Shown piece by piece: positions 1,377 through 15,950 of a DNA stretch of 64,000 bases (position 1 is the first letter of the stretch; each line of letters opens with the position of its first letter). Both the position numbers and the translations under genes were made by a program. Origin of the DNA: a virus. The stretch covers positions 1 through 64,000 of IMG/VR virus record IMGVR_UViG_3300009159_000053; one strand, written 5' to 3'. Below the pieces are notes generated by a model. It was not told the DNA's origin. It searched no databases and was given only the letters and a program-made list of their open reading frames with translations.

Positions 1377-1432
1377 GGGATAAACCCTATACCCTCTTGG
1401 CTACTGCTTTGGTTAGTACTGAGAAAAAATTA

Positions 1433-1681: not shown

Positions 1682-2070
1682 ATATACCCTCATCCTAGAC
1701 CTCTTTCGGCTACTGCTTTGGCCTAAACACGTCAACCATGTCTCCAACCTGGGGGGTCCCCTGTGCGCTGGCGTTTAATGGTGGGGGGGTCTTGGCAATT
1801 TATTAGTGTTAACAATCTCCCCTGACTATTAATCAGGTGCGATCTTGTTAACATGCGCTCAATAACTATGTGTTCCACATGGCTTGATGACTATTTGATG
1901 ACGGCATAACTAATTAGCGTTCGGCTACTGACTACGGCAACAGTTTGTTAATACGGATACCACCAGCCTATTAGCCAACTCTCCGAGTTGTTATCAGATC
2001 AATACATCATTAGTGCCTTATCTCCTTGTAATAGCCAGTTGATCAAACGCATACGCATCACTACATAGCC

Positions 2071-2497: not shown

Positions 2498-2504
2498 CGG
2501 CTCA

Positions 2505-3133: not shown

Positions 3134-3418
3134 ATGGAAAACAAAAAAATGATCATTAATGATCTAACTTATGATGAAGTTGCGTTATTACTTACATCAT
3201 TAAAAACCATGATAATAAAGATGAAGGAACTTGAAGCCCCTGAGTTCTTTATTGAAATGGCAATACCTTTGTTTGATCAGGTCGAGATTATTCTTGATGA
3301 AAAAGTGGCTGAACAAAAAGCGTTCATTGAATTGGTTAGCGACCAACTTGATGATGTTTTACTCGCTTCATCAATTATTGAAAAAGACCCTGATGTGGTA
3401 ATACCTGAATACAAATAA
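3134..3418 (+). CDS. hypothetical acidic protein
   Basis: ORF abutting the previous one; AGGA RBS. Confidence 0.7.
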   Translation: MENKKMIINDLTYDEVALLLTSLKTMIIKMKELEAPEFFIEMAIPLFDQVEIILDEKVAEQKAFIELVSDQLDDVLLASSIIEKDPDVVIPEYK

Positions 3419-3424
3419 ATAAGT

Positions 3425-3605
3425 TTGTGTTAGTAATAACCGATTAAATAGGTTCGGGCGGTTTTCTGAATATCAAATGGTTGCTATTTAATCATTTGAG
3501 TTTTGTTCCTTCATTTATGAACGACAACAGATTAGCCAATGTGTGCCTACATAGAACTCCATAATAGATAAAGAGATCGTCTTTATTCCGTTATTGCTAA
3601 CACAA
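3425..3605 (+). ncRNA. candidate structured RNA closed by a 24-bp terminal stem
   Basis: TTGTGTTAGTAATAACCGATTAAA (3425-3448) pairs with TTTATTCCGTTATTGCTAACACAA (3582-3605); internal hairpins TCAAATGGTT/AATCATTTGA and TTCA-TTTA-TGAA. Confidence 0.6.
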
Positions 3606-3657
3606 TTCAATTCCCCAGTAATACAAACCAAACCAACAAATAGAAACGGAAAACAAA

Positions 3658-4521: not shown

Positions 4522-4535
4522 TTAGGAATAAATAA

Positions 4536-6416
4536 ATGGATTATCCATTCTTAGATTTAGATACGGCTTTAGCCCAATCTGATCTAAAAAATAAGCAGAA
4601 GCAAGAAGCGGAAATTAAACGCCAAAGAGTTGAACGATTTGCTCAATTCTTTGGCAGAGTTAATTCCGCATTAACACTTCGTAAGGTTGAAGTTAAAGTT
4701 GAACATGCGGATATAAACGCACCTGCTTGGTCAGGTGCTAGTCATGTTTGTTTTAACTCTCGATTACTTGGCAACTTAAATACAGCAAAAGAAATTGCTG
4801 GATTGCGTGGTCTTGATTTACACGAAGTTAGCCACATTCTTTATACACCAAGAGAAGGTTCTGAAATCTTTGAATGGTGTAGAGATAATGATTATTTATT
4901 TGCTTACAATGCGTTAGACGATCAACGAATTGAAACTTTATTTACAACTCGTTATCCGTCAACGATTGATTGGTTCACATCAACAATTCTTATTCACTTT
5001 GTTGATGACCCAAAAGCATTTGAAACTTCGTATGGCTTATTGCGTGGTCGGCAATATCTACCAACTGAATTGTTGGCACGATCACGCAACGCATATAAGT
5101 TCCAAGATCAATTAGATGAAATCTGCGAAATTGTTGACCAGTATCGTGTATTAATTTTTCCTGATGATACTGAATTAGCAAAAGATTTAATCAAACGATT
5201 TGATGCGTTAATGCCAAAACAAGAAGTTTCCCAAGACGGATTAGCGGATTGGGAAAAAGATTTACTTGGTAATGGTGGCAAGAAAGTTATGATCTCAATT
5301 AAATCTCCATTTGGTCATGGTGATAGACCGCATGAAGGTATAGAGAGTTCATCAACATCTCGCCCAGTTCCACCAATTCAACAAAAGCGTGATCGTGATA
5401 GGGCTAAAACAAAACCTATTAAAGATGATGCTAAATTGGCAGAACAATTAAAATCAGAACCAGTAATTGAAATTGATTTAACAGATCAAAATAAAAATAC
5501 TGGTAATGGTAAAACTGCTGGTAATCAAACTCCTGATGATCAATCTGCTTTATCAGATATGTTAAATAACATATTAGATAATCAACAGATTGCTAACGAG
5601 ATCAACGACATCATTAGACAAATTGGTGGCTTACCTTCTCTTGCTACTAATAATTCTAAAGAGCCACAAAAATCTCGGTATCATAATCAAACTCCTGATG
5701 CTAAAACTTTCCAAGCATCTCTATCTTTTAGTAGAGAGTTAGAAAGATTAAAAGCAACCTTTGACCCTGCTTGGAATAAATATCAATCACAGGGTCGCTT
5801 ACAGGCGCATAGATATATGCGTGGTGATGATTTAGATACGATCTTTGATCAATGGTCAGAAGGTCAAGATGATGCCACAGAGATCGAGTGCGTAATCCTT
5901 TTAGACAATTCAGGTTCAATGAGTGGCAGTAAAGAAACTTCTGCTTATCGGGCTATGTATGCGATTAAAAGAGCATTAGATCGCATTAACGCAAACACCA
6001 CAGTAATTACATTCAATACGCATACAAACATTTTGTATCGTGCTGATGAAAAAGCAACTGGTGTAATTCGTAATGCTGGCTCTCAGGGTGGAACTAATCC
6101 AACAGAAGCAATTACTTACGCAACTAAAATACTTGCTGAAACTGAAAAGCCAGTTCGTATTTTCTTTGCCATTACTGACGGAGAGTGGGAACATTATTCC
6201 GTTAGAGAAAATGATGAAGCAATTAAGAAACTAGGTAATGCTGGTGTATTAACTGCTTTTGCTTATATTGCTGATCAAGATGAATTAGTAAAACTTGATC
6301 AGGAAAAATCACACTATTGCGAAATTGGTGCGATTGTAAATAATCCCCTTAACTTAATTAGCATGGCTAAATCAATCGTGAAGTATGCGATTAGTCGGCG
6401 ATTAGTTAACGCATAA
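4536..6416 (+). CDS. VWA-domain protein with N-terminal HExxH motif (CobT-like MoxR partner)
   Basis: LHEVSH, NALDDQRIE; MIDAS DNSGSM, GGTNP, ITDG. Confidence 0.88.
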   Translation: MDYPFLDLDTALAQSDLKNKQKQEAEIKRQRVERFAQFFGRVNSALTLRKVEVKVEHADINAPAWSGASHVCFNSRLLGNLNTAKEIAGLRGLDLHEVSHILYTPREGSEIFEWCRDNDYLFAYNALDDQRIETLFTTRYPSTIDWFTSTILIHFVDDPKAFETSYGLLRGRQYLPTELLARSRNAYKFQDQLDEICEIVDQYRVLIFPDDTELAKDLIKRFDALMPKQEVSQDGLADWEKDLLGNGGKKVMISIKSPFGHGDRPHEGIESSSTSRPVPPIQQKRDRDRAKTKPIKDDAKLAEQLKSEPVIEIDLTDQNKNTGNGKTAGNQTPDDQSALSDMLNNILDNQQIANEINDIIRQIGGLPSLATNNSKEPQKSRYHNQTPDAKTFQASLSFSRELERLKATFDPAWNKYQSQGRLQAHRYMRGDDLDTIFDQWSEGQDDATEIECVILLDNSGSMSGSKETSAYRAMYAIKRALDRINANTTVITFNTHTNILYRADEKATGVIRNAGSQGGTNPTEAITYATKILAETEKPVRIFFAITDGEWEHYSVRENDEAIKKLGNAGVLTAFAYIADQDELVKLDQEKSHYCEIGAIVNNPLNLISMAKSIVKYAISRRLVNA

Positions 6417-6427
6417 CAAACAAATGT

Positions 6428-6459
6428 GGTGGAACATGGTCGGGGGGCTATGTTCCACC
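6428..6459 (+). other. intergenic 14-bp hairpin (terminator or processing site)
   Basis: GGTGGAACATGGTC-gggg-GGCTATGTTCCACC; no U-tract. Confidence 0.6.
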
Positions 6460-6483
6460 CTTCTAACTAAGGAGAATAAATAA

Positions 6484-7104
6484 ATGAAATCCGCAGAACT
6501 AAAAATAGGAACTAAATATGGCGTAATTCCAGCATGGGATTATTCATCAAGCGATAAGAAAAATCCTGATCGTGTTCAACGCAATCATGTTGCTAACGCA
6601 ACTCTTGTATCAACTGATAAATATGAATACAAAGTTTATAGATCAGATAAAAAAGATGATCAAAACTTTGCGCCAGCAAATAAAGGTTCTCGTAATGTTG
6701 GTTATTTAGTTTGTTCAGATGATTACATTCAATCAGGACAAGCATCAACAACTATCTTTTGGTTGGCTAGACCACAAGACATTGTTGCTGAATACGCAAC
6801 TCTTGAACCAAAGTGGGCGCAAAGAGAGCAACAAGAATTACTGGAACGCCAAAAGCAAGAAGCAGAACAGAAAGAGCGTGAACGCAAACAGCGTGAAGCA
6901 AGGGAATACCACGAAAGAGTTTCTGCTTCTTTAATCGCATCTCTTAAAACAATTCTTGGTGATCGTGCTAATCACATAACAGTTGACCAACGCAATCGCA
7001 GAGTTGGAGATAACTACATTGAAGTTTCAGAGATGAGTATTGATCTCAAAACTATGAGCATATTAATCGAGAAAGTTCTTGAAGCGAAAGATTTGGTGGG
7101 TTAA
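6484..7104 (+). CDS. hypothetical protein with coiled coil
   Basis: AAGGAG RBS; E/Q/R-rich helix. Confidence 0.75.
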   Translation: MKSAELKIGTKYGVIPAWDYSSSDKKNPDRVQRNHVANATLVSTDKYEYKVYRSDKKDDQNFAPANKGSRNVGYLVCSDDYIQSGQASTTIFWLARPQDIVAEYATLEPKWAQREQQELLERQKQEAEQKERERKQREAREYHERVSASLIASLKTILGDRANHITVDQRNRRVGDNYIEVSEMSIDLKTMSILIEKVLEAKDLVG

Positions 7105-7832
7105 TGACTACACAAACTAAAGATAGTTTTTATCTTGAACGATTAAAAACTAAGTTCAATAATAAAGACGGCTATTGGAGTGTTGGAGATACCAGCACTT
7201 CAATTTGGCAACCACACACTCGCAATAAGTTTGATGTATTAACTGAACAGAAGTTAATTGATATAACTTTTGATGAACAAACTTACAAAAGTTTTCAACT
7301 AATAATTGTTGGGTTTAATTATGAGTTCAGATCAGTTTTGGACTTAAATGGAAATACAACTGATAACTATTTGGCTGATAATGAAATTGGTGGATACGCA
7401 AATGATGTTAAATCTTTTGTTCACTACGAAGGTATTGCTTACGAAATCGGTGGCGTTGGCGATACACGACAAAACTTAAATTGGTTAGGTGAACTTGCCA
7501 CGCTTTATATTTATGGTGGTGATACTGACCCCAATAAAGTTATTAAAAAATGCCAAAAGAAATTAGATTTACTTTCACAAATTGTAGATGTGAGAGATGA
7601 ATTAATTTCTATTTCTAATGAAAGGATTGGTTCATACGATACAAAAAATCCATACAACATTAATGTTGGAGATCAGGTGTTTATTCAAGCGCATGGGCGT
7701 TTGCGTAAAGGCAAAATTGTATCCACAACTGGTAGCAGATTTAATGTTGCTTATCTAACTCCGTCAAACCATAGTGATCTTAAATATAAGACACTTAGAT
7801 TGGATTGTTTGTGGCTACCAATAAATCCGTAA
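7104..7832 (+). CDS. hypothetical protein with C-terminal SH3/Tudor-like motif
   Basis: TAATG coupling; INVGDQVFI...RKGKIVS...FNVAY. Confidence 0.7.
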   Translation: MTTQTKDSFYLERLKTKFNNKDGYWSVGDTSTSIWQPHTRNKFDVLTEQKLIDITFDEQTYKSFQLIIVGFNYEFRSVLDLNGNTTDNYLADNEIGGYANDVKSFVHYEGIAYEIGGVGDTRQNLNWLGELATLYIYGGDTDPNKVIKKCQKKLDLLSQIVDVRDELISISNERIGSYDTKNPYNINVGDQVFIQAHGRLRKGKIVSTTGSRFNVAYLTPSNHSDLKYKTLRLDCLWLPINP

Positions 7833-8422
7833 TTAAATTAAAACGAACTAAAGTGTGTATAGGTTGCTTTACTGCTCTACCACTTAATCGGTTTAATAAA
7901 CACATTGACGGAAAATACAAAGTTAGGGCAAGGTGTAAATCTTGCTTTGCCCTAATGCGTAAAGGTTCATCAACCCGCAAAGCAGAAAAATTAAACTTAC
8001 TTGCTAAGGGTAGAAGGCGTTGTAGTTATTGTCGCAAGATCAAATCACTATCTCGCTTTCAACCTAAATCACACGCAAGCGGTAATAAAGGCTATGAAGG
8101 GGCTTGTAAGCCTTGTGTGTCTATCAGACAAGCGGAAAAACACAAAACTAATCACAAAGAAGTAAGGGAGTTTGTATTTAATTATTTACTACAAAATCCT
8201 TGTATTGATTGTGGTGAAGGTAATGTGCTGGCTTTGGAGTTCGATCACTTACATAGTAAAAAGTTTAATATCGGAACTGCGCTTGGTAGCAACAAACTTT
8301 CTAAATTAATTAAATCAGAAATTAAAAAGTGCGTTGTTAGGTGTTCCAGTTGCCACCGAATTAAAACTCATCAAGAACAAAATAGTTGGAGATACCAATT
8401 ATTTTTAGAAAGGAGTAAATAA
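7805..8422 (+). CDS. HNH endonuclease with tandem N-terminal Zn-finger repeats
   Basis: CxxC pairs, then CIDCG...LEFDH...KKFNI...KCVVRCSSCHRIKT; paralogous to 546..914; start uncertain. Confidence 0.8.
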   Translation: MFVATNKSVIKLKRTKVCIGCFTALPLNRFNKHIDGKYKVRARCKSCFALMRKGSSTRKAEKLNLLAKGRRRCSYCRKIKSLSRFQPKSHASGNKGYEGACKPCVSIRQAEKHKTNHKEVREFVFNYLLQNPCIDCGEGNVLALEFDHLHSKKFNIGTALGSNKLSKLIKSEIKKCVVRCSSCHRIKTHQEQNSWRYQLFLERSK

Positions 8423-8581
8423 ATGAGATCAAAAACTTATTATCGAGTTCGAACTGCGGTTCGTATTCTTTTTTGGAGTGCGTTAGCAGTTGGGATTTAT
8501 TACTTAGCAACACATATTAACTGGGTCGGTGATCACTATTGCTTTGGCACTATTGATCAATGTTATTTAGGTGGTAAGTAA
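8423..8581 (+). CDS. small membrane protein (52 aa)
   Basis: Hand-translated MRSKTYYRVR...ILFWSALAVGIYYL; AAGGAG RBS. Confidence 0.6.
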   Translation: MRSKTYYRVRTAVRILFWSALAVGIYYLATHINWVGDHYCFGTIDQCYLGGK

Positions 8582-8758
8582 ATGGGTTATGTAGAAATTG
8601 TTAGACAAGTTCAAGATCACGAATTAGATTTATGTGATCAATGCGGTCAGCAAGGCGTTCGCAATAATGGCAAAACAATTACTGATAACTATTCTCAGGA
8701 CATTCTTTGGTTTTGCTATAACTGCGTAGAAACACAAAAGAGATCACTCTCTCGCTAA
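8582..8758 (+). CDS. small Zn-finger protein (58 aa)
   Basis: Hand-translated MGYVEIV...CDQC...WFCYNC. Confidence 0.6.
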   Translation: MGYVEIVRQVQDHELDLCDQCGQQGVRNNGKTITDNYSQDILWFCYNCVETQKRSLSR

Positions 8759-8767
8759 CTTAAAATT

Positions 8768-8907
8768 GTTGGGTAGGCGTTAACACAAGACCTTACTGGG
8801 GTTTTGTTTTCATTCCCCACTCCTTTCACTTGTGAAGGGCGGTCAAGACTTTTATTTCCTTAATTTGCTTTGGATAATAAAACGAGCCGTATCTGCGCCT
8901 ACTCAAC
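8768..8907 (+). ncRNA. candidate multi-branch structured RNA
   Basis: 12-bp closing stem GTTGGGTAGGCG/CGCCTACTCAAC; inner GACC/GGTC, TGGGG/CCCCA, CCTTTCA-CTTG-TGAAGGG, TTTTATT/AATAAAA. Confidence 0.6.
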
Positions 8908-8930
8908 TCCTAATAGAATTGGAGTAAGTA

Positions 8931-9089
8931 ATGTTTAATGAAAATGAAAAGAAAAAGATAGTTCACCAAAGAATTGCGTATCAAAAATCTTTATCCGAAG
9001 TTGCTCGTATGTTTGGAACTTCAAGAATACAGATTAGAAAGATAGAAACGGAATATCTAAATCAATTAAGGGAGAATAAAAATGGCTGA
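8931..9089 (+). CDS. small HTH protein (sigma region 4-like)
   Basis: Hand-translated ...KSLSEVARMFGTSRIQIRKIE; GGAG RBS. Confidence 0.6.
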   Translation: MFNENEKKKIVHQRIAYQKSLSEVARMFGTSRIQIRKIETEYLNQLRENKNG

Positions 9090-9282
9090 TGATTTACTTG
9101 ATGAAAGTTTATTTGATGAAGTGTTTAGCACCGAGCCTGAATGTAATTGTGAGTGCGGTTGTAAAGTTCCAGTATTAGGTCAATGCGTTGATTGCGGTGA
9201 TGATACTGGGCATCAAAATAACAATGGATTACCTAAATACGATTACTTGAACGAACTATTTACTACAAAGGAGAGCCAATGA
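9082..9282 (+). CDS. small Cys-rich acidic protein
   Basis: CNCECGC...CVDC. Confidence 0.65.
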   Translation: MADDLLDESLFDEVFSTEPECNCECGCKVPVLGQCVDCGDDTGHQNNNGLPKYDYLNELFTTKESQ

Positions 9283-9590
9283 ACCAAGAACAAATGGATT
9301 TAATTAAATCTATTAACTTTGCTAATGAGTTTATTAAAATTGTTCGTGGGTTTAAGTTAGATCAAGAACGGCAAGATAGTTTGCCACAAGAAGTAAAAGA
9401 GTATTTAGCCAACGAACACCTAAACAAATTAATTACAGATCAGGGATTAGAACCTGAAATGTTAGTTTGGGGCTTACTACACATGATTGAAATACTCTTA
9501 AATGTTGCTGAATTAGAACCTAATGATTTAGTTGAAATTATGGAGAAGTTTGTTGAACAAATATCTAATAGTAATGGAGATCAAACATGA
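9279..9590 (+). CDS. hypothetical protein
   Basis: ATGA-coupled ORF; AAGGAG RBS. Confidence 0.7.
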   Translation: MNQEQMDLIKSINFANEFIKIVRGFKLDQERQDSLPQEVKEYLANEHLNKLITDQGLEPEMLVWGLLHMIEILLNVAELEPNDLVEIMEKFVEQISNSNGDQT

Positions 9591-9910
9591 CTAGACCTAA
9601 AAGCCAAGTGTCTTTTACTAAAGCAAGAAAAGTAGTAAAACCAGTTGAATTAACCACACCTACTCCACAAGATATTGATGATGCGCCATGCCAAACAGTT
9701 GACCCTGAAATCTTTTTTCCTGATCCAACTGATGTAATTGGTATTAAAAAAGCCAAAACTTTTTGTGGTAATTGCGATCAAGCAATTAAAACTAAATGTT
9801 TATCTTTCGCATTATCTAACAAAGTTAGATATGGCGTATGGGGTGGATTAACTGAGATTGAACGCCAAAGTTTGCTTCGCAAACAATATAGGAGTGGTAT
9901 CAATGGTTAA
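9587..9910 (+). CDS. whiB: WhiB-family Fe-S transcription factor
   Basis: C-QTVDPEIFFP...AKTFCGNC...CLSFAL...GVWGGLTEIER. Confidence 0.92.
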   Translation: MTRPKSQVSFTKARKVVKPVELTTPTPQDIDDAPCQTVDPEIFFPDPTDVIGIKKAKTFCGNCDQAIKTKCLSFALSNKVRYGVWGGLTEIERQSLLRKQYRSGING

Positions 9911-10373
9911 TACTTTTATTCCTTATCCTGACTTTGTTAAGTCTGCTAAGGCTCTTGATTACAGGCGATTAGGTAAGCAACGAGTTGAAGCGTGGCAAAT
10001 ACTTAGGGCGTTAATGGGTATTAGTCAGGGCTGGCGTAATCACCCTGCTACAAAGATGTGGCGTGGGCATGAGAAGGCTTTGTGTGAATACGGAATTGCG
10101 ATCTGCCAAGAGTGGATAGATCGTGGCTACAAAGATACTTTGTTGCCCAGTTTTGTAGCAATACACCCAACCTTCCCTGATACTGGATTACCTTTTTGGT
10201 TTGGTAATTCAGAACTTCATAATTCGCATCAAAGTAATCTAAATCGTAAAGATAATACTTATTATCAATTTAATGTGCCAGTAGATTTACCTTATCTATG
10301 GGCTGATACGGAAACTAAAACTACAAAGTGGGGAACTAAACCTAATGAAACTAAGCAGAAAGTTAAAAGATAA
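9903..10373 (+). CDS. pyrimidine-dimer DNA glycosylase / endonuclease V-like (MSMEG_6728 family)
   Basis: TFIPYPDF...LDYRRLGKQRVEA.QIL...WRNHPA..MW.G...SHQSNL.RK; start moved to ATG 9903. Confidence 0.85.
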   Translation: MVNTFIPYPDFVKSAKALDYRRLGKQRVEAWQILRALMGISQGWRNHPATKMWRGHEKALCEYGIAICQEWIDRGYKDTLLPSFVAIHPTFPDTGLPFWFGNSELHNSHQSNLNRKDNTYYQFNVPVDLPYLWADTETKTTKWGTKPNETKQKVKR

Positions 10374-10375
10374 AC

Positions 10376-10564
10376 ATGAGCGAATGGCTAACAAATACAG
10401 ACATAGCAAAACTAACTGGATTAAAGATCGAAACTCTACACAGTTATCTAAATCGCAACACCCTTCCCAAACCCGACAAATACATGGGGAGAACACCAGT
10501 TTGGTTAACAACAACCATAAAACAATGGGCATCAGAGAGAGAATTGGAGATTGAAAATGAATAA
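10376..10564 (+). CDS. AlpA/excisionase-like winged-HTH protein
   Basis: LTNTDIAKLTGLKIETL..Y..RNTLPKPD..GRTPVW. Confidence 0.8.
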   Translation: MSEWLTNTDIAKLTGLKIETLHSYLNRNTLPKPDKYMGRTPVWLTTTIKQWASERELEIENE

Positions 10565-10718
10565 AGATCAAGCAATTACTGAATTGTTAAATCTACGCCA
10601 GTTGTGGGAATTAGAACAACAAAATACAGAAGCAGACGGCAATTCAGATTACGCAACCTATACAGGTGCTATCAACGCTATTGATGTTGCTATTAAAATT
10701 GTAAAGGAGATCAAGTAA
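10557..10718 (+). CDS. hypothetical protein (53 aa)
   Basis: Hand-translated MNKDQAITELL...; fills the gap and overlaps both neighbours. Confidence 0.55.
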   Translation: MNKDQAITELLNLRQLWELEQQNTEADGNSDYATYTGAINAIDVAIKIVKEIK

Positions 10719-11254
10719 TGGGTTTAGATATGTATTTGTATGCTGAAAAATATATTGGTAGCGGTGCTGATAAAACTGGTTCTTATACCAAAATTAAAAA
10801 TCTTGCTGGATTAAAAGATTTACCAACTCCTGATTTTTCTGCTTTAATTGTTAAATCAATGGTTGGTTATTGGCGCAAAGCAAACTCTATTCATGGCTGG
10901 ATTGTTGATAAGTGTGGAGAAGGCGTTGATAAGTGCCAAGTAATTTATTTAAGTGATGAAGATTTATTACAATTAAAAAATGATTGTATTAAGGCTTTGG
11001 CTAATCCTAGTCGTGAATATCAGATAGAAAACCAAAAAGTTTTTTATCAATTATGCGATTACTTAAATAGTTTAGAAACTGAATTAACTCCTGATACTTT
11101 TCAAAATCCACTTCCACCAGTTGACGGATTTTTCTTTGGTGGTAGTGATCTGACCGATCATTACTATTACCAACTGGAATACACGATTGATTTAATTACT
11201 TCCCTATTAGAGAGCGATCACGAATTAGGATTTAGTTATCAAGCCAGTTGGTAG
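10718..11254 (+). CDS. conserved phage protein (MGLDMY...YWRKAN...YQASW family)
   Basis: Motifs MGLDMYL, YWRKANSIHGW, GFFFG, YQASW. Confidence 0.8.
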   Translation: MGLDMYLYAEKYIGSGADKTGSYTKIKNLAGLKDLPTPDFSALIVKSMVGYWRKANSIHGWIVDKCGEGVDKCQVIYLSDEDLLQLKNDCIKALANPSREYQIENQKVFYQLCDYLNSLETELTPDTFQNPLPPVDGFFFGGSDLTDHYYYQLEYTIDLITSLLESDHELGFSYQASW

Positions 11255-11258
11255 ATTG

Positions 11259-11334
11259 AACTAACTTTATTTAATTCCAGAAAAGTTAGTTCACGCTCAA
11301 TAACTAACTTGTCTGGTGTTCCACCAAGTTAGTT
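11259..11334. repeat. tandem pair of AACTAACTT-N15-AAGTTAGTT sites (copies 2 and 3)
   Basis: 11259-11291 and 11302-11334; perfect arms with different 15-bp cores. Confidence 0.9.
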
Positions 11335-11374
11335 CCAAGCCTGACCGCCTAATTCCCTATGTAGCCGATAGTTC

Positions 11375-11411
11375 AGCCCTTAGTCCGATTTGGATTAGGG
11401 GCTTATCTTTT
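11375..11411 (+). terminator. probable intrinsic terminator of the early operon
   Basis: AGCCCTTAGTCC-gattt-GGATTAGGGGCT followed by TATCTTTT. Confidence 0.6.
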
Positions 11412-11422
11412 GATTAAGAACC

Positions 11423-11478
11423 TACTCACCAGTAGTATTACTCGCCAGTAGAAGGGTCATTACTCGCCAGTAGAAGGG
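11423..11478. repeat. direct repeats upstream of the recombinase (arm-type or operator candidates)
   Basis: ATTACTCGCCAGTAGAAGGG at 11437-11456 and 11459-11478; TACTCACCAGTAG at 11423-11435. Confidence 0.85.
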
Positions 11479-11485
11479 GCAACTT

Positions 11486-12823
11486 ATGGCGTATGTGATT
11501 AAACGCAACGGCAGATTTACAGGCTATTACAGGCTTCAAAATCGCCGTTTATCGGCTGGCACATGGGCTAATGAAACCGAAGCCATGTATCACGCCATAC
11601 AAGCCGAGAAGCAGGGCTTAAAAGCCCCCTCAAAGGCTAATTTAAGGGTGGTTGATTTTGTAGATCAATGGCTGGCGGTGGCTGATCTAATGCCGATCAC
11701 AAAAAAGGGCTATAAGTCGGTCTTAACTAGATTTGTAATTCCAGTTATAGGAGATCGAGAACTAACTTCCCTGAAGCCTTCAGACCTAGTTAAGTTAATT
11801 GATGATCTCAAACTATCGGGAGTTAGACCTGCCACCTTAAATCAGGTGAAGGCTTCTCTTGGCTCAATGTTTTCAAAGTTGGTTAATGCTGGTCAATTAG
11901 AGAGCAATCCGACACATGGAATTAAGATCAAGGTCAATCATGCCAATATATCTAATCTCCTAGACCCTGATGAGTTTAAGGAGATCATTAAGCATTTACC
12001 GACACAAGGAACTAAATTATTCGCCCAATTCTTAGTAGCAAGTGGGTGTCGGTTTGGTGAAGCAACGGAAGTAAGAGCAAAAGACATTAATTTCAAAACT
12101 GGCGAAATCTTTATTCAAAGGCGAGTTAGTGATCTAGGAACAAATTACAACAATGGAACTAGGTTCATGGTGATAGATGCCACCAAGTCAGGGCATAAGA
12201 GAAGCCTAGTAATAGGAAAAGCCCTATTACAGCAGTTAAATGCGTATGTCCTAGCAAAAGGCATAGCAAAAGATGATCTGATGTTTCCAAGAACAATACT
12301 CTTAACGGAAGGTAAACTTAAAGGTTCACGAAGCGCAAAGCCCTCTCGACCATTCGAGAAAGGCGGAAAACAGTTCCAGCATGGAACTCTTTACTCCTAT
12401 ACACATGGGGGTTGTAGATGCGAAGGGTGTAGGCAAGCAGTAGCAAACTACCGCAAAGCCAAAGCCCAAGCAGAAGCACTAGCAGAAGCAGAGCAGGTAA
12501 GAAGCCGAAGCCGTAAGGCAAAGCAGAAGCATCAGCAGAAGCACAAGCAAGGGAGTTTCATCAACAATATGAGCCACATGCCTCGTGATGTATGGAGAAC
12601 AACTTGGAACAAAGCAATAGCCAAGTCCGCAATCGGCTGGTCGCCTAGAACTCATGATTTACGACATGCAAACGCTACGCAGTTGTTAAAGAACGGCATA
12701 GATGTCCATGAAGTAAAAGAGCGATTAGGACACCAATCGATCAAGACGACAGAGCGGTATTTACACCGCCTTCGTTCACACCAGTCAAAGGCATCTGAAA
12801 GTGCCAACGACTATTTGGAGTGA
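11486..12823 (+). CDS. int: tyrosine recombinase/integrase with an internal Zn-finger insertion
   Basis: GCRFGE (R), TKS (K), HDLRH, LGH, TTERY (Y); N-terminal arm- and core-binding domains. Confidence 0.93.
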   Translation: MAYVIKRNGRFTGYYRLQNRRLSAGTWANETEAMYHAIQAEKQGLKAPSKANLRVVDFVDQWLAVADLMPITKKGYKSVLTRFVIPVIGDRELTSLKPSDLVKLIDDLKLSGVRPATLNQVKASLGSMFSKLVNAGQLESNPTHGIKIKVNHANISNLLDPDEFKEIIKHLPTQGTKLFAQFLVASGCRFGEATEVRAKDINFKTGEIFIQRRVSDLGTNYNNGTRFMVIDATKSGHKRSLVIGKALLQQLNAYVLAKGIAKDDLMFPRTILLTEGKLKGSRSAKPSRPFEKGGKQFQHGTLYSYTHGGCRCEGCRQAVANYRKAKAQAEALAEAEQVRSRSRKAKQKHQQKHKQGSFINNMSHMPRDVWRTTWNKAIAKSAIGWSPRTHDLRHANATQLLKNGIDVHEVKERLGHQSIKTTERYLHRLRSHQSKASESANDYLE

Positions 12824-13425
12824 TGATGAAAACAAACGCAAGAATAAGAGCCGAGCAGATGCCAAAGGCAATAGCCAAAGCATCAGCAAAAGCCCAAGCA
12901 AGACTAAAGGCTTTAATACTTGGTGGGTCAATTTCGACCTTAGCCGTAGCATTTGGAGTAGCAACTACATCAGATGCCATAGCACCAACAAGAGCCGAAG
13001 CACTAATAGTTAGCGAAACAACAAACGAAGCAACCTTAAAGAAGTATGAAAATACTCATAAGTTAACCGATCTTGAATTGGTTGAGTTGCTTCATGCCGT
13101 AGGCTTTACAGGCACAGACCTGAAAGAAGCATGGGCAGTTGCTAAGAAAGAAAGTAATGGGCGACCCCTCGCTCACAATCCTAATACAAACACAGGTGAT
13201 AACTCGTGGGGCATGTTTCAAATAAACATGATCGGAGAGTTAGGCAAAGATCGTAGAGAAAAATTTGGTTTAGAAAATAATGCCGAATTGCTCAACCCTG
13301 TGGTTAATGCAAAGATCGCTTACTACATGAGTAGAGGCGGTAAAGATTGGAGTTCTTGGCATGGACTTACTCCAAAGACTAAGCAGTTAATGGAACAGTT
13401 CCCAGCAAAGAACGCAAAGCAATAG
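12820..13425 (+). CDS. membrane-anchored or secreted lysozyme-like transglycosylase
   Basis: Hydrophobic N-terminal segment; KKESNG, SWGMFQINM, LLNPVVNAKIAY, DWSSW. Confidence 0.85.
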   Translation: MMMKTNARIRAEQMPKAIAKASAKAQARLKALILGGSISTLAVAFGVATTSDAIAPTRAEALIVSETTNEATLKKYENTHKLTDLELVELLHAVGFTGTDLKEAWAVAKKESNGRPLAHNPNTNTGDNSWGMFQINMIGELGKDRREKFGLENNAELLNPVVNAKIAYYMSRGGKDWSSWHGLTPKTKQLMEQFPAKNAKQ

Positions 13426-13482
13426 CAGAAGCCATAGCAGAAGCATAAGCAAGCAAAGCAATAGGAGAAGCAATAGGAGAAG
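13414..13482 (+). repeat. AGCA-rich repeat tract (CAAAGCAATAG[C/G]AGAAG units)
   Basis: GCAAAGCAATAGCAGAAG at 13414-13431 is identical to 13898-13915; variants at 13454 and 13467. Confidence 0.85.
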
Positions 13483-13504
13483 CCCCATCAGAGATGGTGG
13501 GGCT
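13481..13504 (+). terminator. GNRA-capped hairpin, possible terminator
   Basis: AGCCCCATCA-GAGA-TGGTGGGGCT. Confidence 0.45.
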
Positions 13505-13511
13505 ATCTTAA

Positions 13512-13553
13512 AACTAACTTACCTGGCAGCCAGGAGAAGTTAGTCAGTTAGTT
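13512..13553. repeat. AACTAACTT-N16-AAGTTAGTC site (copy 4) plus an extra half-site
   Basis: 13512-13545, followed by AGTTAGTT at 13546-13553. Confidence 0.75.
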
Positions 13554-13563
13554 AGGGGCAATC

Positions 13564-13890
13564 ATGGGAGAACACTCTTTCGTAGATCGTTATATAGAAT
13601 TAGATAAGCAATACATACAGCATAAGCAAGAACAATATAAACATTACAAAGAACCTAATCTGCCTTACACCGAAAAATTGTTTTGGGATAAATTAATTCA
13701 TTTAGGTTGGAGAAAAGATTACACAACAACAGAGTGTTTAGTATTAGTTTGCTCTGTTTGTGAAGGAGCCATAACAAAGGTAGTTCTTAAAAATAATGTA
13801 AATATTAGACCTTTATTAAATATTGAAGATAAAGTAGAAATTCACAAGACAGCATATTGCAAAGCAACAGCAAAGCAGAGCAAAGCATAA
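13564..13890 (+). CDS. hypothetical protein with CxxC...HxxxxC
   Basis: Last ORF of the plus-strand block; GGGG RBS. Confidence 0.65.
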   Translation: MGEHSFVDRYIELDKQYIQHKQEQYKHYKEPNLPYTEKLFWDKLIHLGWRKDYTTTECLVLVCSVCEGAITKVVLKNNVNIRPLLNIEDKVEIHKTAYCKATAKQSKA

Positions 13891-13916
13891 GCAAAAGGCA
13901 AAGCAATAGCAGAAGG

Positions 13917-15950
13917 CTATTGATTATCTTTAATTAGCCTAACTTCGCAGGCATCGGTTGTACAGTAAGCCTCACCAATAGCATCAGCAGCCATACCAGC
14001 ATAAACTCCTGACAAATCAATTGGAAATAATTTCATAGTTCCTTCTGATTCATATTCTTCAGCAGTGATTTGAGTGTAAGGCATTTGAGGATAGGTAGCA
14101 TTACCAGAAGGTAAGAAGGATACGGTTTTAAGTTGACCATCATACATATGCAAAGCCGTACCAATAGCCGAGGCTTCGGTCTCAGGATTAAAACTAATAG
14201 TCACACTTACAGAGTTGTCTGACCAATACCTTTGTGCAGTTGCAGCAAGAGCCATCTTTTCGTAAATGCTTACGTCTTTTTCAGAACGTCTAGCATTAGA
14301 TTTGATTGGGAAAAATACAACAGAAGTAGTATTTGGAGATTCACTTGCTGGTTCTACTCTGTAGTTAGCCATCTTAAACAAAGGCAACATTGGATCAGAG
14401 TTTGCAAACCGAATAGCACGATTAAAGTACTCTCCGCCTACAGTCCAGTGAACGCCAGGTGATTCACCTGCCAAGATGCTAACTGTTCCACTTGGCTTCA
14501 CGGTAGTCATCTTGATTGACTCACGAATACCAAGCCATTCAGAATAAGTGGTGTCGTAGGTCTTGATTACTTTGTATCCTTCATCCATCCACTGACGGAG
14601 TATTGGTAATCCTTTTCTATCTGCAAAGTTAGCCACTCCTGAAACAGAAGTTCCAATGCGCCGATTTCTTTGCATTATGGCGTTTGTTTCTTCCCAGTGC
14701 GTAGGGATAAGGGTTACCGTCTTAGCGTATAGATAAGCAAACTTTAGAGTTCTTTTAAAATCTTCTATATCGTCGTGGCGATTTAGATAGGTCTCTACTA
14801 AAGTACAGCATTCAAAAGATTCAAGAGATTGTTCTGCACAGGGGTTATATCCTGCAATGCGCCAATCTTTATTATTAATTGGATCAATGAGACGACCATA
14901 TTGTTTCGAGATATCCATCCAAACAACTCCTGGCTCTCCGTTACGAGCAATGCCGTCAATAATGTTATCTAAATTATCTCCAACATTTACCGATACAGAG
15001 TTGTTGGACATCCAAGCCCATCCTGGTTTTTCTGGATTGTAAGAGTTTCTTTCTGGAAATTTTTCTGCGTTCTTTAAATTTAAGAAATCTTCATCATCAA
15101 TTCGACCAATAAGTAACTCAGCAGACCGCCGAACATTACCAGATACAACACAAACCCCAATAAGGTTCCCAATATCAGCAATATCAATGCGGGTAAGTTT
15201 CTCACCAGCACGTTCTTTGAAGATTCCATCGATGTAATTATGTAACTTAATGAGCGGTTCTGGACCTGCTGCTGTTCCACCAAATGTCTTGATGGGTTCG
15301 CCTGCCTTGCGAATTTCTGCATAATCAAACCTAGGACGTTTTGAGTCTGATCGTAGGTAAGAGTTAATAAGCGTGGCCGTTGACTCGACCCAGCCTTCTC
15401 TGGTATCTGGAATGACATATATTTCCCCCTCCTGCGGTTTGTAAATCGTAAAGTCTTTGTCGGCACCCTTATCGTCGAACCCAACTCCAACACCAAGCAT
15501 ACTAGCCTCCATTAAAAACGCAAAAGGCTTTGCTGGATCGGTCTTAGTCATTGAGCCAGTCGATACAAACGCACAGTTTTGTAAGGCTGCTGAGTTACGT
15601 TTTTCATTTACAAGCGGAGTACCCATAACCCAAAGACCCCTACCTGGTGGTGTCCACTTTAAGTTCCACAAACGGTCGAAAGCCTCTTTGGCTGAGGCGG
15701 CTGCTTTAGCATCTGACCAAGGTAAGCGGTTTGTTTTAGCGTGGTCTTTTTGTAAAGAATACATACCGTTGATTACTCTCTCACAAACGTCAACCCAAGT
15801 TTCTTTAGTACCATCTGCTTTAAGTCGTGAATAGGTCCTAAGAAAAGTTATTTCACCAACGGAATTACCAGCGGCATCTTGATATCCGAAGGGAGCCTTT
15901 AAACTCTTATATGGTGTAACAAACTCTTCGGCTAACTTAAAAGAAAACAT
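13917..15950 (-). CDS. nrdJ: class II (adenosylcobalamin-dependent, monomeric RTPR-type) ribonucleotide reductase
   Basis: RTYSR, PPGRGLW, NC, GNVRRSA, NPCAEQ, TTVKPSGT, C-terminal CxxDxC. Confidence 0.95.
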   Translation of the reverse strand: MFSFKLAEEFVTPYKSLKAPFGYQDAAGNSVGEITFLRTYSRLKADGTKETWVDVCERVINGMYSLQKDHAKTNRLPWSDAKAAASAKEAFDRLWNLKWTPPGRGLWVMGTPLVNEKRNSAALQNCAFVSTGSMTKTDPAKPFAFLMEASMLGVGVGFDDKGADKDFTIYKPQEGEIYVIPDTREGWVESTATLINSYLRSDSKRPRFDYAEIRKAGEPIKTFGGTAAGPEPLIKLHNYIDGIFKERAGEKLTRIDIADIGNLIGVCVVSGNVRRSAELLIGRIDDEDFLNLKNAEKFPERNSYNPEKPGWAWMSNNSVSVNVGDNLDNIIDGIARNGEPGVVWMDISKQYGRLIDPINNKDWRIAGYNPCAEQSLESFECCTLVETYLNRHDDIEDFKRTLKFAYLYAKTVTLIPTHWEETNAIMQRNRRIGTSVSGVANFADRKGLPILRQWMDEGYKVIKTYDTTYSEWLGIRESIKMTTVKPSGTVSILAGESPGVHWTVGGEYFNRAIRFANSDPMLPLFKMANYRVEPASESPNTTSVVFFPIKSNARRSEKDVSIYEKMALAATAQRYWSDNSVSVTISFNPETEASAIGTALHMYDGQLKTVSFLPSGNATYPQMPYTQITAEEYESEGTMKLFPIDLSGVYAGMAADAIGEAYCTTDACEVRLIKDNQ

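What the first reader, a model, noticed from the sequence alone, without database searches (positions are those of the whole stretch)
12430..13915. Strand-polar AGCA/CAAAGCARTAGC repeat field that ignores reading frame, mirrored at the other flank
Seen: dense AAGCA/TAGCA words on the plus strand at ~12430-12550, 12610-12625, 12850-13030, 13414-13482 and 13850-13915. They run through three genes in different frames (KA, QKH, SK) and intergenic DNA, and stop at the nrdJ stop codon. The 18-mer GCAAAGCAATAGCAGAAG is exact at 13414 and 13898. The same motif occurs inverted at ~1396-1412 and ~1708-1721 (CAAAGCAGTAGCC; the first is 15/16 identical to 12610). Frame independence shows a nucleic-acid-level signal. 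Inference: a polar protein-loading array acting as an injection-stop or packaging signal, a fork trap, or a UGCU-repeat termination zone for the 50-kb leftward transcript.
Basis: partly seen in the sequence, partly recalled or inferred. Interest (0 to 1): 0.75.

Follow-up and report, generated by a model that had tools for sequence, protein, structure and literature searches.

The report
Frame-blind AGC repeat in integrase operon
A lake phage that probably infects actinobacteria writes the word AGC every six letters, always on the coding strand and in any reading frame, through its integrase operon; distant relatives keep the pattern, so it looks like a real signal, but its reader and function are unknown.

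Summary
In the 86,892-bp phage genome, only four 120-nt windows on the + strand hold 3 or more AGC-N3-AGC pairs. All four lie at 12.4-13.9 kb.

The repeat has a strict 6/12-nt period, with consensus AAGCAATAGCAG. It runs through a linker in the integrase, the N-terminal tail of a lysozyme-like protein, that gene's 3' end up to a terminator hairpin, and the tail of ORF108 up to the hairpin shared with nrdJ.

Amino-acid composition explains about half of it. Relatives settle the rest:
- Of 49 nrdJ-anchored loci with the int-lys module, 43 carry the array on the int strand. Of 31 without the module, 1 does.
- Integrases only 43-47% identical keep the same nucleotide repeat in another frame, as (Ser-X)n built on the rare AGC codon.

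So a nucleic-acid-level element tied to the int-lys operon is supported (about 0.7). It is not tied to the genome position, which argues against an injection stop, a fork trap or a leftward termination zone.

My ranking:
- a periodic single-strand (RNA) landing pad, 0.3
- integrase arm-type or other duplex sites, 0.25
- slippage-driven low complexity, 0.22

This scan noted the same kind of array before, on another genome (e1-6029826).

The parts
11405..11485 (+). Promoter/operator region of the int-lys operon. It follows an upstream terminator hairpin (11375-11403) and holds a TTGAYT -35-like hexamer, 2-3 TTACTNNNNAGTAA-type palindromes (the 22-nt tandem repeat at 11437-11480) and a GGGG ribosome-binding site.
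   Evidence: The same layout appears in 39 unique upstream sequences from 61 loci, including distant lineages. That it works as a promoter is inferred.
11486..12823 (+). Tyrosine integrase, 445 aa. A CRCxxC mini-domain and a hypervariable linker are inserted in the catalytic domain.
   Evidence: Pfam Phage_integrase 3.3e-23, matched in two stretches. PHROG 1 integrase 1.9e-52. AF2 model: N-terminal three strands plus helix with pLDDT 81-86; best PDB match is lambda Int 1z1b_A.
12430..12553 (+). Array 1: about 20 hexamers with an AGC core inside the integrase linker. The register slips twice, so the ORF reads them in all three phases.
   Evidence: AGC 16 against 7.9 expected, and distance-6 pairs 11 against 2.9 (0 of 4000 resamplings reach either). 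Cores vary at 2/48 columns, spacers at 16/76.
12610..12625 (+). Isolated 16-mer CAAAGCAATAGCCAAG inside the integrase gene.
   Evidence: unchanged in most relatives.
12820..13425 (+). ORF201: a lysozyme-like (SLT_3) protein with an N-terminal Lys/Ala tail and a membrane anchor. Its start overlaps the integrase stop.
   Evidence: Pfam SLT_3 5.5e-17.
12850..12905 (+). Array 2, in the N-terminal tail of ORF201.
   Evidence: The excess over amino-acid expectation is marginal (AGC 7 against 4.2; 113 of 4000 resamplings reach it). The array is rebuilt and longer in relatives whose protein tail is different (L046-L053).
13405..13483 (+). Array 3: five 12-mers of the type AAGCAATAGCAG. It covers the last codons of ORF201 and 56 nt of 3' UTR, and holds four in-frame TAGs.
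   Evidence: Present upstream of the hairpin in lineages down to 43% integrase identity. Predicted unpaired.
13474..13510 (+). Terminator-like GC-rich hairpin (stem 13482-13489 / 13494-13503) directly behind array 3.
   Evidence: Every lineage keeps its own GC stem, with compensatory changes such as A-U to G-C. A T-run follows it in L248, L270 and L279.
13512..13545 (.). 33-34-bp dyad AACTAACTT-N16-AAGTTAGT, the second strong hairpin behind array 3.
   Evidence: the two hairpins together give z -5.3. Its role is unknown.
13564..13890 (+). ORF108: a small protein with no family match. Its tail KATAKQSKA is written in the repeat.
13855..13915 (+). Array 4: the ORF108 tail plus 25 nt of intergenic DNA. 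Its length varies between relatives, and it is a junction for gene replacement.
   Evidence: AGCA 6 against 1.9 expected in the coding tail (1 of 4000 resamplings reach it).
13904..13922 (.). Hairpin CAATAGC-AGAAG-GCTATTG, shared by the converging ORF108 and nrdJ transcripts. Its left arm is the last repeat unit.
   Evidence: The stem changes with compensation in relatives.
1396..1412 (-). Single copy of CCAAAGCAGTAGCCAAG, 22 nt upstream of a small leftward ORF.
1709..1722 (-). Single copy of CCAAAGCAGTAGCC, 27 nt upstream of the leftward tRNA-Gly (1606-1681).
   Evidence: AAGCAGTAGCC is kept at the equivalent place in 3 of 4 related records that match this flank.

Best explanation
The field is a conserved cis-acting repeat that belongs to the integrase-lysozyme operon of a family of uncultured freshwater phages, probably of actinobacteria. 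Its unit is AGC every six nucleotides with an A-rich, U-poor spacer; a 12-nt consensus is AAGCAATAGCAG. It is always on the sense strand.

SHOWN:
- It is a nucleotide-level feature. It is kept across deep divergence and in all three reading frames.
- It sits only where a protein tolerates low complexity (the integrase linker, protein tails) or in 3' UTRs that end at terminator hairpins.
- It gains and loses units by slippage.
- It travels with the operon, not with the genome position.

INFERRED (my committed mechanism, about 0.3; the general claim 'functional nucleic-acid signal of this operon' about 0.7):
- It is read on the single-stranded transcript. Runs of 4-22 AGC triplets separated by three variable bases form an unstructured landing pad for an oligomeric RNA-binding factor, working like the (G/U)AG arrays bound by TRAP.
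- Because arrays 3 and 4 run into the 5' arm of their terminator hairpins, occupancy would set termination, 3'-end stability or translation of the int-lys message. That would control how much integrase is made.
- The arrays inside ORFs would be further copies of the same pad, placed where the protein allows.
For: Uniqueness and periodicity.

Excess over amino-acid composition plus codon use, with the genome's forbidden 4-mers respected: integrase array AGC 16 against 7.9 and distance-6 pairs 11 against 2.9 (0 of 4000 resamplings reach either); ORF108 tail AGCA 6 against 1.9 (1 of 4000).

Frame independence across lineages. The linker reads KAKAQAEALAEAEQVRSRSRKAKQKHQQKHKQ here, KPYQKPKPYQKQ in L224 and SLSKSLSKSESPSKSHSKSLS in L279. 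All are written on AGC hexamers, and AGC is only 134 of 1,696 Ser codons in this genome.

Cores are more conserved than spacers in the coding arrays.

Association with the module: 43/49 against 1/31; opposite strand 0/49 and 0/31.

The array sits upstream of a covarying GC hairpin in lineages down to 43% integrase identity, while the lysozyme stop moves from 12 to 66 nt before the hairpin.

The arrays are predicted unpaired and are 45% A, 7% T.

int-lys is a self-contained unit with its own promoter-like region and terminator in all lineages.

A 3-nt core with a 3-nt free spacer puts successive cores on opposite faces of a duplex but suits a single-strand reader. This last point rests on general knowledge and was not tested.

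Pieces of the arrays occur in contigs of four lake or freshwater RNA libraries, which is weak evidence.
Against: - No reader protein is known or was found. ORF108 and the neighbouring genes have no RNA-binding family match.
- The RNA-library contigs give no strand, no ends and no proof of transcription.
- Array 3 has a well-defined 12-mer with about 10 conserved positions, which looks more like a duplex protein site.
- The two minus-strand motif copies lie just upstream of -10-like hexamers and may not be transcribed. No sigma-70 consensus promoter was found there either.
- Some int-lys lineages have short linkers and weak arrays (L247, L252-L254: 2-3 pairs), so the element is dispensable at least in part.
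- Ribosomes would sweep a bound factor off the arrays inside ORFs.
- Slippage plus tolerance could maintain much of the pattern without any function.
Confidence: 0.3

Rival explanations
1. Duplex DNA sites for the operon's own lambda-type integrase (arm-type sites). Array 3, the hairpin and the dyad would be the P arm and core of attP, and array 4 the other arm. The coding arrays would be extra or autoregulatory sites.
For: - The arrays co-occur strictly with the integrase.
- The AF2 model gives an N-terminal three-strand-plus-helix domain with pLDDT 81-86, and the best PDB matches are full-length lambda Int.
- Array 3 is five tandem 12-mers in direct orientation next to a stem-loop. Passages of PMC3203893 describe pairs or sets of 11-bp direct repeats and a stem-loop terminator inside Cluster K attP sites.
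- AAGCAATAG recurs in lineages whose integrase N-termini are nearly invariant.
Against: - There are more than 40 hexamers over 1.5 kb and inside three ORFs, against 4-7 sites in a few hundred noncoding bp for known attP sites.
- The conserved unit is 3 nt at a 6-nt period.
- No core or attB was identified, and no integrated copy was found in one genome per 185,579 species.
- Pfam finds no arm-domain family in residues 1-60.
- The noncoding region directly upstream of int, the usual attP place in actinophages, is filled by a promoter/operator layout.
Confidence: 0.25
2. No function at the nucleic-acid level. A slippage-prone hexamer microsatellite encodes tolerated Lys/Ala/Ser-rich disordered linkers and tails. 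It was spread between nearby sites by ectopic conversion and left partly untranslated where stop codons moved.
For: - Amino-acid composition alone predicts about half the AGC count.
- In several lineages the array is translated as a polycationic lysozyme tail, for example HKAKAKAKAIAKAIPKGKAKAKAIAKAKPKQKQ in L264.
- Copy number varies: a 12-nt indel in array 3, large variation in array 4, and a 53-nt deletion in L042 that truncates the integrase.
- Linker length tracks repeat number.
- Weak arrays in L247 and L252-L254.
Against: - The same AGC core, on the same strand, at the same two to four places persists in lineages whose integrases are 43-47% identical, where neutral sequence should be randomised.
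- It is written with rare codons (AGC for Ser; AAG and CAG over AAA and CAA).
- Cores are conserved against spacers.
- There are no comparable arrays elsewhere in 87 kb, nor in relatives without the module.
- The noncoding array 3 is as conserved as its flanks while the lysozyme gene next to it has diverged to 66%.
Confidence: 0.22
3. Oriented roadblock sites of the stoperator kind. An asymmetric 13-mer (CAAAGCARTAGCC) is bound by a phage repressor, with operator copies at the start of the leftward unit and stop sites at the end of the rightward unit.
For: - The motif is asymmetric and co-oriented with transcription on both sides.
- With one mismatch or fewer there are 8 sites in the window, against about 0.3 expected by my own arithmetic (site list).
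- The minus-strand copies sit 22-27 nt before the first leftward genes and are conserved.
- Passages of PMC9283540 describe 13-mer asymmetric sites in promoters and short intergenic spaces whose orientation follows transcription.
Against: - There are only 7-8 sites, mostly inside one operon and inside ORFs, not more than 20 dispersed intergenic sites.
- The bulk of the field is a degenerate 6-nt repeat, not copies of a 13-mer.
- No repressor of the L5 type was looked for or found.
- AAGCAGTAGCC also occurs in related phages without the module, in varied contexts.
Confidence: 0.08
4. Linker sequences for modular exchange. Short conserved direct repeats at cassette borders let diverged phages recombine and swap the lysozyme, small-ORF and downstream genes.
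For: Mosaic borders coincide with the arrays.
- The integrase and array 3 are nearly identical in loci whose lysozyme is 66% identical.
- Different genes follow array 4 in L006, L027 and L030, and a gene is inserted before the ORF108 homologue in L003.
Against: - Borders at conserved stretches are expected anyway.
- It does not explain the 6-nt register, the strand bias or the array inside the integrase.
- Direct repeats also cause harmful deletions (L042).
Confidence: 0.07
5. One reading: an injection-stop or packaging signal, a replication fork trap, or a UGCU-repeat termination zone for the long leftward transcript.
For: - The field lies where the rightward and leftward gene blocks converge.
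- The complement of array 4 supplies a U-rich tail behind the nrdJ hairpin.
Against: - Relatives that keep nrdJ but lack int-lys next to it show no array on either strand (1/31 and 0/31).
- Three of the four arrays lie 0.4-1.5 kb inside the rightward operon.
- No data on termini or forks could be obtained.
Confidence: 0.05

Closest known systems
TRAP-binding (G/U)AG repeat arrays of Bacillus trp leaders, and HutP UAG repeats (recalled, not from a call)
   Same: - A 3-nt core is repeated many times with short non-conserved spacers on the sense transcript.
- Some arrays overlap coding starts or terminator elements.
- Low information per unit and high valency.
   Different: - The period is 6 nt rather than 5 or 7, and the core is AGC.
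- The arrays lie inside ORFs and 3' UTRs rather than 5' leaders.
- No cognate ring protein is known.
- The host phylum is not known to have TRAP.
Arm-type integrase-binding sites of heterobivalent tyrosine integrases (lambda P/P'; Cluster K mycobacteriophage attP, PMC3203893, passages read)
   Same: - Tandem direct repeats of 11-12 bp next to an integrase gene, with a stem-loop among them.
- The integrase has a predicted N-terminal arm-type domain.
   Different: - Many more units, a 6-nt sub-period, and extension through three ORFs over 1.5 kb.
- No core or attB is known.
- No evidence of lysogeny was found.
Stoperators of Cluster A mycobacteriophages (PMC9283540, passages read)
   Same: An asymmetric 13-mer whose orientation follows the direction of transcription, with copies near a promoter and copies at gene ends.
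   Different: - Few sites, clustered in one operon.
- Most of the field is a degenerate repeat inside genes.
- The repressor is unknown.
Start-associated sequences of Cluster K mycobacteriophages (PMC3203893)
   Same: A short conserved, strand-specific actinophage motif whose function is unproven. The units next to the hairpin contain ATAGGAG, like the SAS core.
   Different: Not start-associated here. ATAGGAG occurs 14 times in the genome, and the two copies in array 3 precede a hairpin, not a gene start.
Coding microsatellites and low-complexity linkers that evolve by replication slippage
   Same: Unit gain and loss, placement in disordered segments, and length polymorphism between close relatives.
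   Different: The core is conserved across frames and across deep divergence, the repeat is confined to one strand, it recurs at several sites of one operon, and it is conserved in noncoding DNA.

Membership tests
Arm-type integrase-binding sites (attP arms) | The integrase is heterobivalent, with an N-terminal arm-binding domain. | tested here: inconclusive
   In the AF2 model residues 1-45 form three strands plus a helix with pLDDT 81-86, and the top PDB match is lambda Int 1z1b_A at E 1.6e-7. Pfam gives no family for residues 1-60 even at E 10. The model as a whole is poor (mean pLDDT 58.6).
Arm-type integrase-binding sites (attP arms) | The sites flank a common core that is shared with a bacterial attB. 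| not testable with these tools
   No integrated relative was found in genome contigs: 0 of 209 candidate stretches, then 2 weak unrelated hits of 86.
Arm-type integrase-binding sites (attP arms) | A handful of 10-11-bp sites confined to a noncoding attP of a few hundred bp. | tested here: not met
   63 AGC units and about 12 12-mer-like sites are spread over 1.5 kb, mostly inside three ORFs.
Stoperators (L5-type) | An asymmetric 13-mer whose orientation correlates with transcription. | tested here: met
   The plus-strand copies lie in the rightward operon and the minus-strand copies at the head of the leftward unit.
Stoperators (L5-type) | More than 20 sites dispersed through the genome in promoters and short intergenic spaces. 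| tested here: not met
   The 64-kb window holds 8 sites with one mismatch or fewer; 5 lie in 12.6-13.9 kb and several are inside ORFs.
Stoperators (L5-type) | A cognate monomeric two-domain repressor is encoded by the phage. | not tested
   No search for such a protein was made.
TRAP/HutP-type periodic RNA-binding arrays | A trinucleotide core repeated six or more times with short variable spacers on the sense RNA. | tested here: inconclusive
   The sequence pattern is met: perfect-period chains of 4-11 units, spacer first base A 73%, C 21%, T 0%. Presence in a sense transcript is not shown. The family definition is recalled.
TRAP/HutP-type periodic RNA-binding arrays | A cognate oligomeric RNA-binding protein. 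| not tested
   Nothing suggestive appeared among the neighbours scanned. The host is unknown.
Neutral coding microsatellite / low complexity | Copy-number polymorphism between close relatives. | tested here: met
   A 12-nt indel in array 3, variable array 4, and a 53-nt deletion in L042.
Neutral coding microsatellite / low complexity | No constraint on the unit sequence beyond the encoded protein. | tested here: not met
   The AGC core is kept in three frames with rare codons. Cores vary less than spacers. The excess over codon resampling remains.
Terminator / termination zone of the leftward (nrdJ) transcript | Present wherever the leftward unit ends, whatever the neighbouring genes. | tested here: not met
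   Only 1 of 31 nrdJ loci without int-lys reaches 4 pairs per 200 nt on that strand.

The most novel reading that the evidence does not exclude
A new class of cis-element: a frame-blind, six-nucleotide-register AGC code written through an integrase operon and read on single-stranded nucleic acid by a still unknown oligomeric factor of a phage or of its actinobacterial host. The factor would meter integrase expression by occupying arrays that run into terminator hairpins. If so, selection on the RNA would shape the proteins' disordered linkers and tails, not the reverse.
Probability: 0.25. Interest if true: 0.85.

Novelty: new variant of a known kind. Interest (0 to 1): 0.62.

Why it matters
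If the arrays are functional, they show a regulatory or recognition signal that overrides reading frame inside a recombinase gene. They would also explain why the integrase linker is hypervariable in this phage family. That would give a handle on how abundant freshwater phages, whose hosts are hard to culture and for which I found no integrated copy, control a conserved integrase whose role there is unclear.

The element is short, periodic and easy to synthesise, so the question of who reads AGC-N3 repeats can be tested directly by pull-down and reporter assays.

If the arrays prove to be neutral, they are a clean example of a microsatellite that stays at orthologous sites while the protein around it diverges to about 45% identity.

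Tried and rejected
Of the 80 rows I saw, three (L107, L128, L154) are on contigs already fetched for this family. It says nothing about distribution, so I dropped it.
- Rfam at the E-value threshold on 11000-14500 gave only two miRNA-model chance hits on the dyads before int.
- The annotated phage collection gave one record, matching nrdJ only (Actinomycetia phage DSL-LC01, 68.7%).
- TGCT-dense bins in distant lysozyme loci turned out to be Ala-rich structural genes on the other strand, not arrays.
- The idea that ATAGGAG marks gene starts (SAS-like) was rejected: the genome has 14 sites, and the two in array 3 precede a hairpin rather than a gene start.
- T-avoidance after AGC was first taken as an array property. 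It is explained by genome-wide absence of AGCT. I therefore repeated the codon resampling with forbidden 4-mers, which raised the expectation from 4.7 to 6.2 AGCA in the integrase array.
- RNAalifold on the hairpin alignment gave a poor consensus because of indels. The hairpins were read sequence by sequence instead.
- No sigma-70 consensus promoter was found at the minus-strand motifs.
- The antisense pairs in L252 and L247 are scattered, so there is no natural inversion to separate strand from gene orientation.
- RNA-library contigs cover parts of 12340-13810, including arrays 1-3. They give no strand, no ends and no proof of transcription. The parts without cover say nothing.
- Considered but not testable here: DnaA-trio-like or primase sites, Chi-like protection, decoys for Type III or ISP restriction enzymes, R-loop origin, read-through of the four in-frame TAGs.
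- Not used: metagenome contigs, the large protein searches, the ESM atlas. Supplementary files of papers were not asked for; figures S1-S4 of PMC10865867 and the figures of PMC3203893, which list arm-type sites, might refine the comparison.
- Searches for a published description found nothing relevant: (the 12-mer occurs only in 15 unrelated papers, 5 of them listed).

Full report
SETTING. The window is the first 64 kb of a single 86,892-bp virus record.
- Genes on the + strand run from about 2.5 to 13.9 kb. They include MoxR/CobS-like AAA_5 and CobT-like VWA genes, a pyrimidine-dimer glycosylase and a WhiB-like factor.
- From 13,917 onward the genes are on the - strand, starting with nrdJ.
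- The finding therefore lies at the end of the rightward block, where the two blocks converge.
- The genes under it are a tyrosine integrase (11486-12823), a lysozyme-like SLT_3 protein with an N-terminal anchor (ORF201, 12820-13425, its start overlapping the integrase stop) and a small ORF without family (ORF108, 13564-13890).
- WhiB, and the nrdJ match to an Actinomycetia phage, suggest an actinobacterial host. That is an inference.

OBSERVATION.
- AGCA occurs 586 times and TGCT 588 times in the genome. Four 200-nt bins at 12401, 12801, 13401 and 13801 hold 12, 8, 9 and 12 AGCA and no TGCT.
- The real unit is AGC at a 6-nt period. In 12400-13920 there are 63 AGC on + and 12 on -. Pairs number 27 at distance 6, 21 at 12, 16 at 18, and none at distance 3. 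The other 85 kb of the + strand has 30 pairs at distance 6 and 37 at distance 3.
- Genome-wide, on the + strand, only the four arrays give 3 or more AGC-N3-AGC pairs in 120 nt. One window on the - strand, near 86444, has 3.
- Tandem Repeats Finder reports period 6 at 12468-12549, period 12 (AAGCAATAGCAG, 5.3 copies) at 13417-13483, and periods 5, 11 and 18 at 13859-13917.
- The arrays are 45% A and 7% T.

IS IT ONLY AMINO-ACID COMPOSITION? Partly.
- I resampled synonymous codons from this genome's usage. The three genes under test were left out of the codon table, and 4-mers that the genome or the block avoids were forbidden.
- Integrase array: expected 7.9 AGC and 2.9 distance-6 pairs, observed 16 and 11 (0 of 4000 resamplings reach either).
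- ORF108 tail: expected 1.9 AGCA, observed 6 (1 of 4000).
- ORF201 N-terminal tail: expected 4.2 AGC, observed 7 (113 of 4000).
- The non-array parts of the three genes are unremarkable by comparison; the rest of int and of ORF201 show a small AGC excess (134 and 114 of 4000) and no excess of distance-6 pairs.
- The 56 nt behind the ORF201 stop and the 25 nt behind the ORF108 stop are noncoding.
- Within the integrase the register slips twice, so a single ORF reads the repeat as X-Ala, Ser-Arg and Lys-Gln/His.

CLOSE AND MIDDLE-DISTANCE RELATIVES.
- A scan of viral contigs with ORF201 gave 109 confirmed loci, of which the best 80 were kept. I examined 28 of these 80.
- All 18 with a full-length match (66-99% identity) have dense AGCA bins at the same four relative positions. 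None of the 10 that match only residues ~47-199 at 54-68% does.
- The integrase array is nearly identical in all of them. The changes fall in the spacers. Among 28 unique sequences of that segment, 2 of 48 core columns vary against 16 of 76 spacer columns.
- In the ORF201 N-terminal array the figures are 3 of 16 against 25 of 40.
- The noncoding arrays show no such contrast (12/35 against 12/44; 19/32 against 13/29, the latter blurred by indels).
- In L046-L053 the ORF201 N-terminus is a different peptide, yet it is again written in AGCA hexamers and is longer.
- Array 3 with its hairpin and dyad is kept almost unchanged beside a lysozyme gene that has diverged to 66%.
- Array 4 changes in length and composition. 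It is where other genes are joined on in L006, L027 and L030. L003 has an extra gene inserted before the ORF108 homologue.

DISTANT RELATIVES AND THE KEY CONTROL.
- A scan with nrdJ gave 595 confirmed loci; the best 80 (79-99% identity) were kept.
- Of these, 49 carry an integrase and/or lysozyme relative on the other strand next to nrdJ, and 31 do not.
- A 200-nt window with 4 or more AGC-N3-AGC pairs on the integrase strand is found in 43 of 49 (median best window 6) and in 1 of 31 (median 2). On the nrdJ strand the figures are 0 of 49 and 0 of 31.
- Many of the 49 are close kin, but the set includes integrases at 43-67% identity. The exceptions with the module are L223, L231, L247 and L252-L254 (2-3 pairs).
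- The array therefore belongs to the int-lys module. It does not belong to the end of the leftward unit or to a genome position.

FRAME INDEPENDENCE ACROSS LINEAGES.
- In an alignment of 11 integrases (44-89% identical to the window's), everything is alignable except a linker between the CRCxxC motif and SH(L/M)PRDxWR.
- That linker is KAKAQAEALAEAEQVRSRSRKAKQKHQQKHKQ here, KPYQKPKPYQKQ in L224, and SLSKSLSKSESPSKSHSKSLS or SHSKSDSRSNSRSDSKS in L279 and L270.
- The DNA under all of them is AGC hexamers (AGCAAAAGCCTT and the like): 9-14 AGC in the 117-141-nt linkers of the four lineages with 44-48% identical integrases.
- AGC is a rare Ser codon in this genome (134 of 1,696). AAG and CAG, used throughout the window's Lys-Gln part, are the minor codons for Lys and Gln.
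- Long linkers (117 nt or more) hold 5-11 distance-6 pairs and short ones 0-3. The rest of the integrase gene holds mostly 1-3 (up to 6) (L271 and L283 were mis-parsed for the lysozyme, and L257 and L271 are cut by contig ends).

THE MOST CONSTANT ARRAY.
- This is the one at the lysozyme 3' end, with 2-7 pairs in most lineages.
- I collected every place where (A/G)A(A/G)GCCCC is preceded by 7 or more AGC in 100 nt, so the array is present by construction. This gave 38 unique segments.
- In all of them the repeat runs straight into a GC-rich hairpin whose stem differs between lineages but always pairs. A T-run follows it in L248, L270 and L279.
- In 16 representative lineages the lysozyme stop lies 12 to 66 nt before the hairpin; it is TAG in 12 and TAA in 4.
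- The same DNA is therefore a translated Lys/Ala tail in some lineages and a 3' UTR in others.
- As RNA, array 3 is predicted unpaired and is followed by two strong hairpins (z -5.3). Array 4 ends in a 7-bp hairpin that overlaps the nrdJ stop.
- Upstream of the integrase, all lineages share the same layout: a terminator hairpin with a T-run, a TTGAC-like hexamer, two or three TTACTNNNNAGTAA-type palindromes and a GGGG ribosome-binding site (39 unique sequences from 61 loci).
- int-lys is therefore a self-contained and probably regulated unit. That last step is inferred.

THE OTHER FLANK.
- CCAAAGCAGTAGCC occurs twice on the - strand, 27 nt before the tRNA-Gly and 22 nt before a small ORF.
- AAGCAGTAGCC is kept at the equivalent place in 3 of the 4 related records that match this flank, with or without the tRNA.
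- The 10-mer AAGCARTAGC occurs 1-5 times in each of five related records, and its reversed control occurs in none.
- It also occurs in a complete relative without the int-lys module, in varied contexts.
- These are single sites at the head of the leftward unit, not arrays. Their link to the field is a shared word and co-orientation with transcription, nothing more.
- No sigma-70 consensus promoter was found there.

WHAT READS IT. Three readings remain close.
- Single strand. A 3-nt core with a free 3-nt spacer, U-poor and unstructured, on the sense strand, running into terminator arms. This works like TRAP or HutP targets (recalled) and suits a single-strand reader better than a duplex one, because a 6-bp period puts successive cores on opposite faces of the helix.
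- Duplex sites for the integrase. The model has an N-terminal three-strand-plus-helix domain (pLDDT 81-86) and matches lambda Int best. Array 3 is five tandem 12-mers beside a stem-loop, as described for Cluster K attP sites. But the field is far larger than any attP, lies mostly in ORFs, has no identified core, and no integrated copy was found.
- Slippage alone. Polymorphism is real, including a 53-nt deletion that truncates the integrase in L042. This does not explain conservation of the core across frames, strand and depth of divergence, nor the confinement to one operon.
- My figures: functional signal about 0.7 in all, of which single-strand reader 0.3, integrase or other duplex sites 0.25, stoperator-like roadblock 0.08 and recombination linker 0.07. 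Neutral 0.22.

EXPRESSION DATA. Four lake or freshwater RNA libraries from four studies hold contigs over parts of 12340-13810, including arrays 1-3 and a variant with the 12-nt deletion. Contigs show neither strand nor ends, and DNA carry-over cannot be excluded. I count this only as presence.

EARLIER NOTES OF THIS SCAN.
- A follow-up on another genome (e1-6029826) describes a strand-specific, frame-independent repeat array in the integrase operon of freshwater actinobacterial phages. It names arm-type sites as the closest known kind. I reached the same picture from my own calls, so it is not independent evidence.
- Notes on this genome pointed to the dyads and to a restriction-site desert. 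I confirmed the latter and found it wider than noted.

LITERATURE. Searches for a description of such a repeat found none. For PMC9283540, PMC3203893, PMC10865867 and PMC7157519 I read only the passages returned by 'find'. For the other papers I saw only the search listing.

Noticed in passing
whole genome G000; + block 1750-13920: AGCT, CCGG and CGCG are absent from the whole 86.9-kb genome (0 against about 308, 137 and 137 expected). ACGT, GGCC and GTAC are absent, and TGCA nearly so (3 against 41), only in the rightward block; they are common elsewhere. This looks like layered restriction avoidance, stricter in the block that may be exposed first.
   Followed up: partly
window 11405-11485 and the equivalent place in L-loci: Every int-lys lineage has, between an upstream terminator and the integrase start, a TTGAC-like hexamer and two or three TTACTNNNNAGTAA-type palindromes. 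This is a conserved operator-like layout for an unknown repressor.
   Followed up: partly
L042, integrase linker: A 53-nt deletion between two repeat blocks shifts the frame and ends the integrase at ...KAKAQAEASAKA*, before the catalytic C-terminal part. It is either a real knock-out by repeat recombination or an assembly error.
   Followed up: partly
window 13512-13545; also 11258-11335: 33-34-bp dyads with AACTAACTT / AAGTTAGTT arms lie on both sides of the int-lys unit. The one behind array 3 folds as a long hairpin and is conserved in relatives. They have the size of lox/FRT-type sites, but their centres differ. Function unknown.
   Followed up: no
L003, L006, L027, L030 downstream of the ORF108 homologue: Different genes are joined exactly at the end of array 4. 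L003 has an extra ~0.8-kb gene between the dyad and the ORF108 homologue. The arrays coincide with mosaic borders.
   Followed up: no
window 1606-1681 (-) and relatives L081, L083: The tRNA-Gly(GCC) is present behind the conserved AAGCAGTAGCC motif in the window and in one relative. It is absent in another relative, where the motif directly precedes the next small ORF. The tRNA is an optional insert.
   Followed up: no
integrase residues ~296-325 (window 12371-12460): The HGTLYSYTHGGCRCEGC motif inserted in the catalytic domain matches PHROGs annotated as HTH DNA-binding protein and HNH endonuclease (E 3e-4) and is invariant in the 11 aligned integrases. It may be an extra zinc-ribbon-like DNA-binding module of unknown role.
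   Followed up: no
G007 (complete 104-kb relative without int-lys next to nrdJ): AAGCAGTAGC occurs three times on one strand and the reversed control not at all. One copy sits just before a terminator-like hairpin. The 11-mer may be a wider motif of this phage group.
   Followed up: partly
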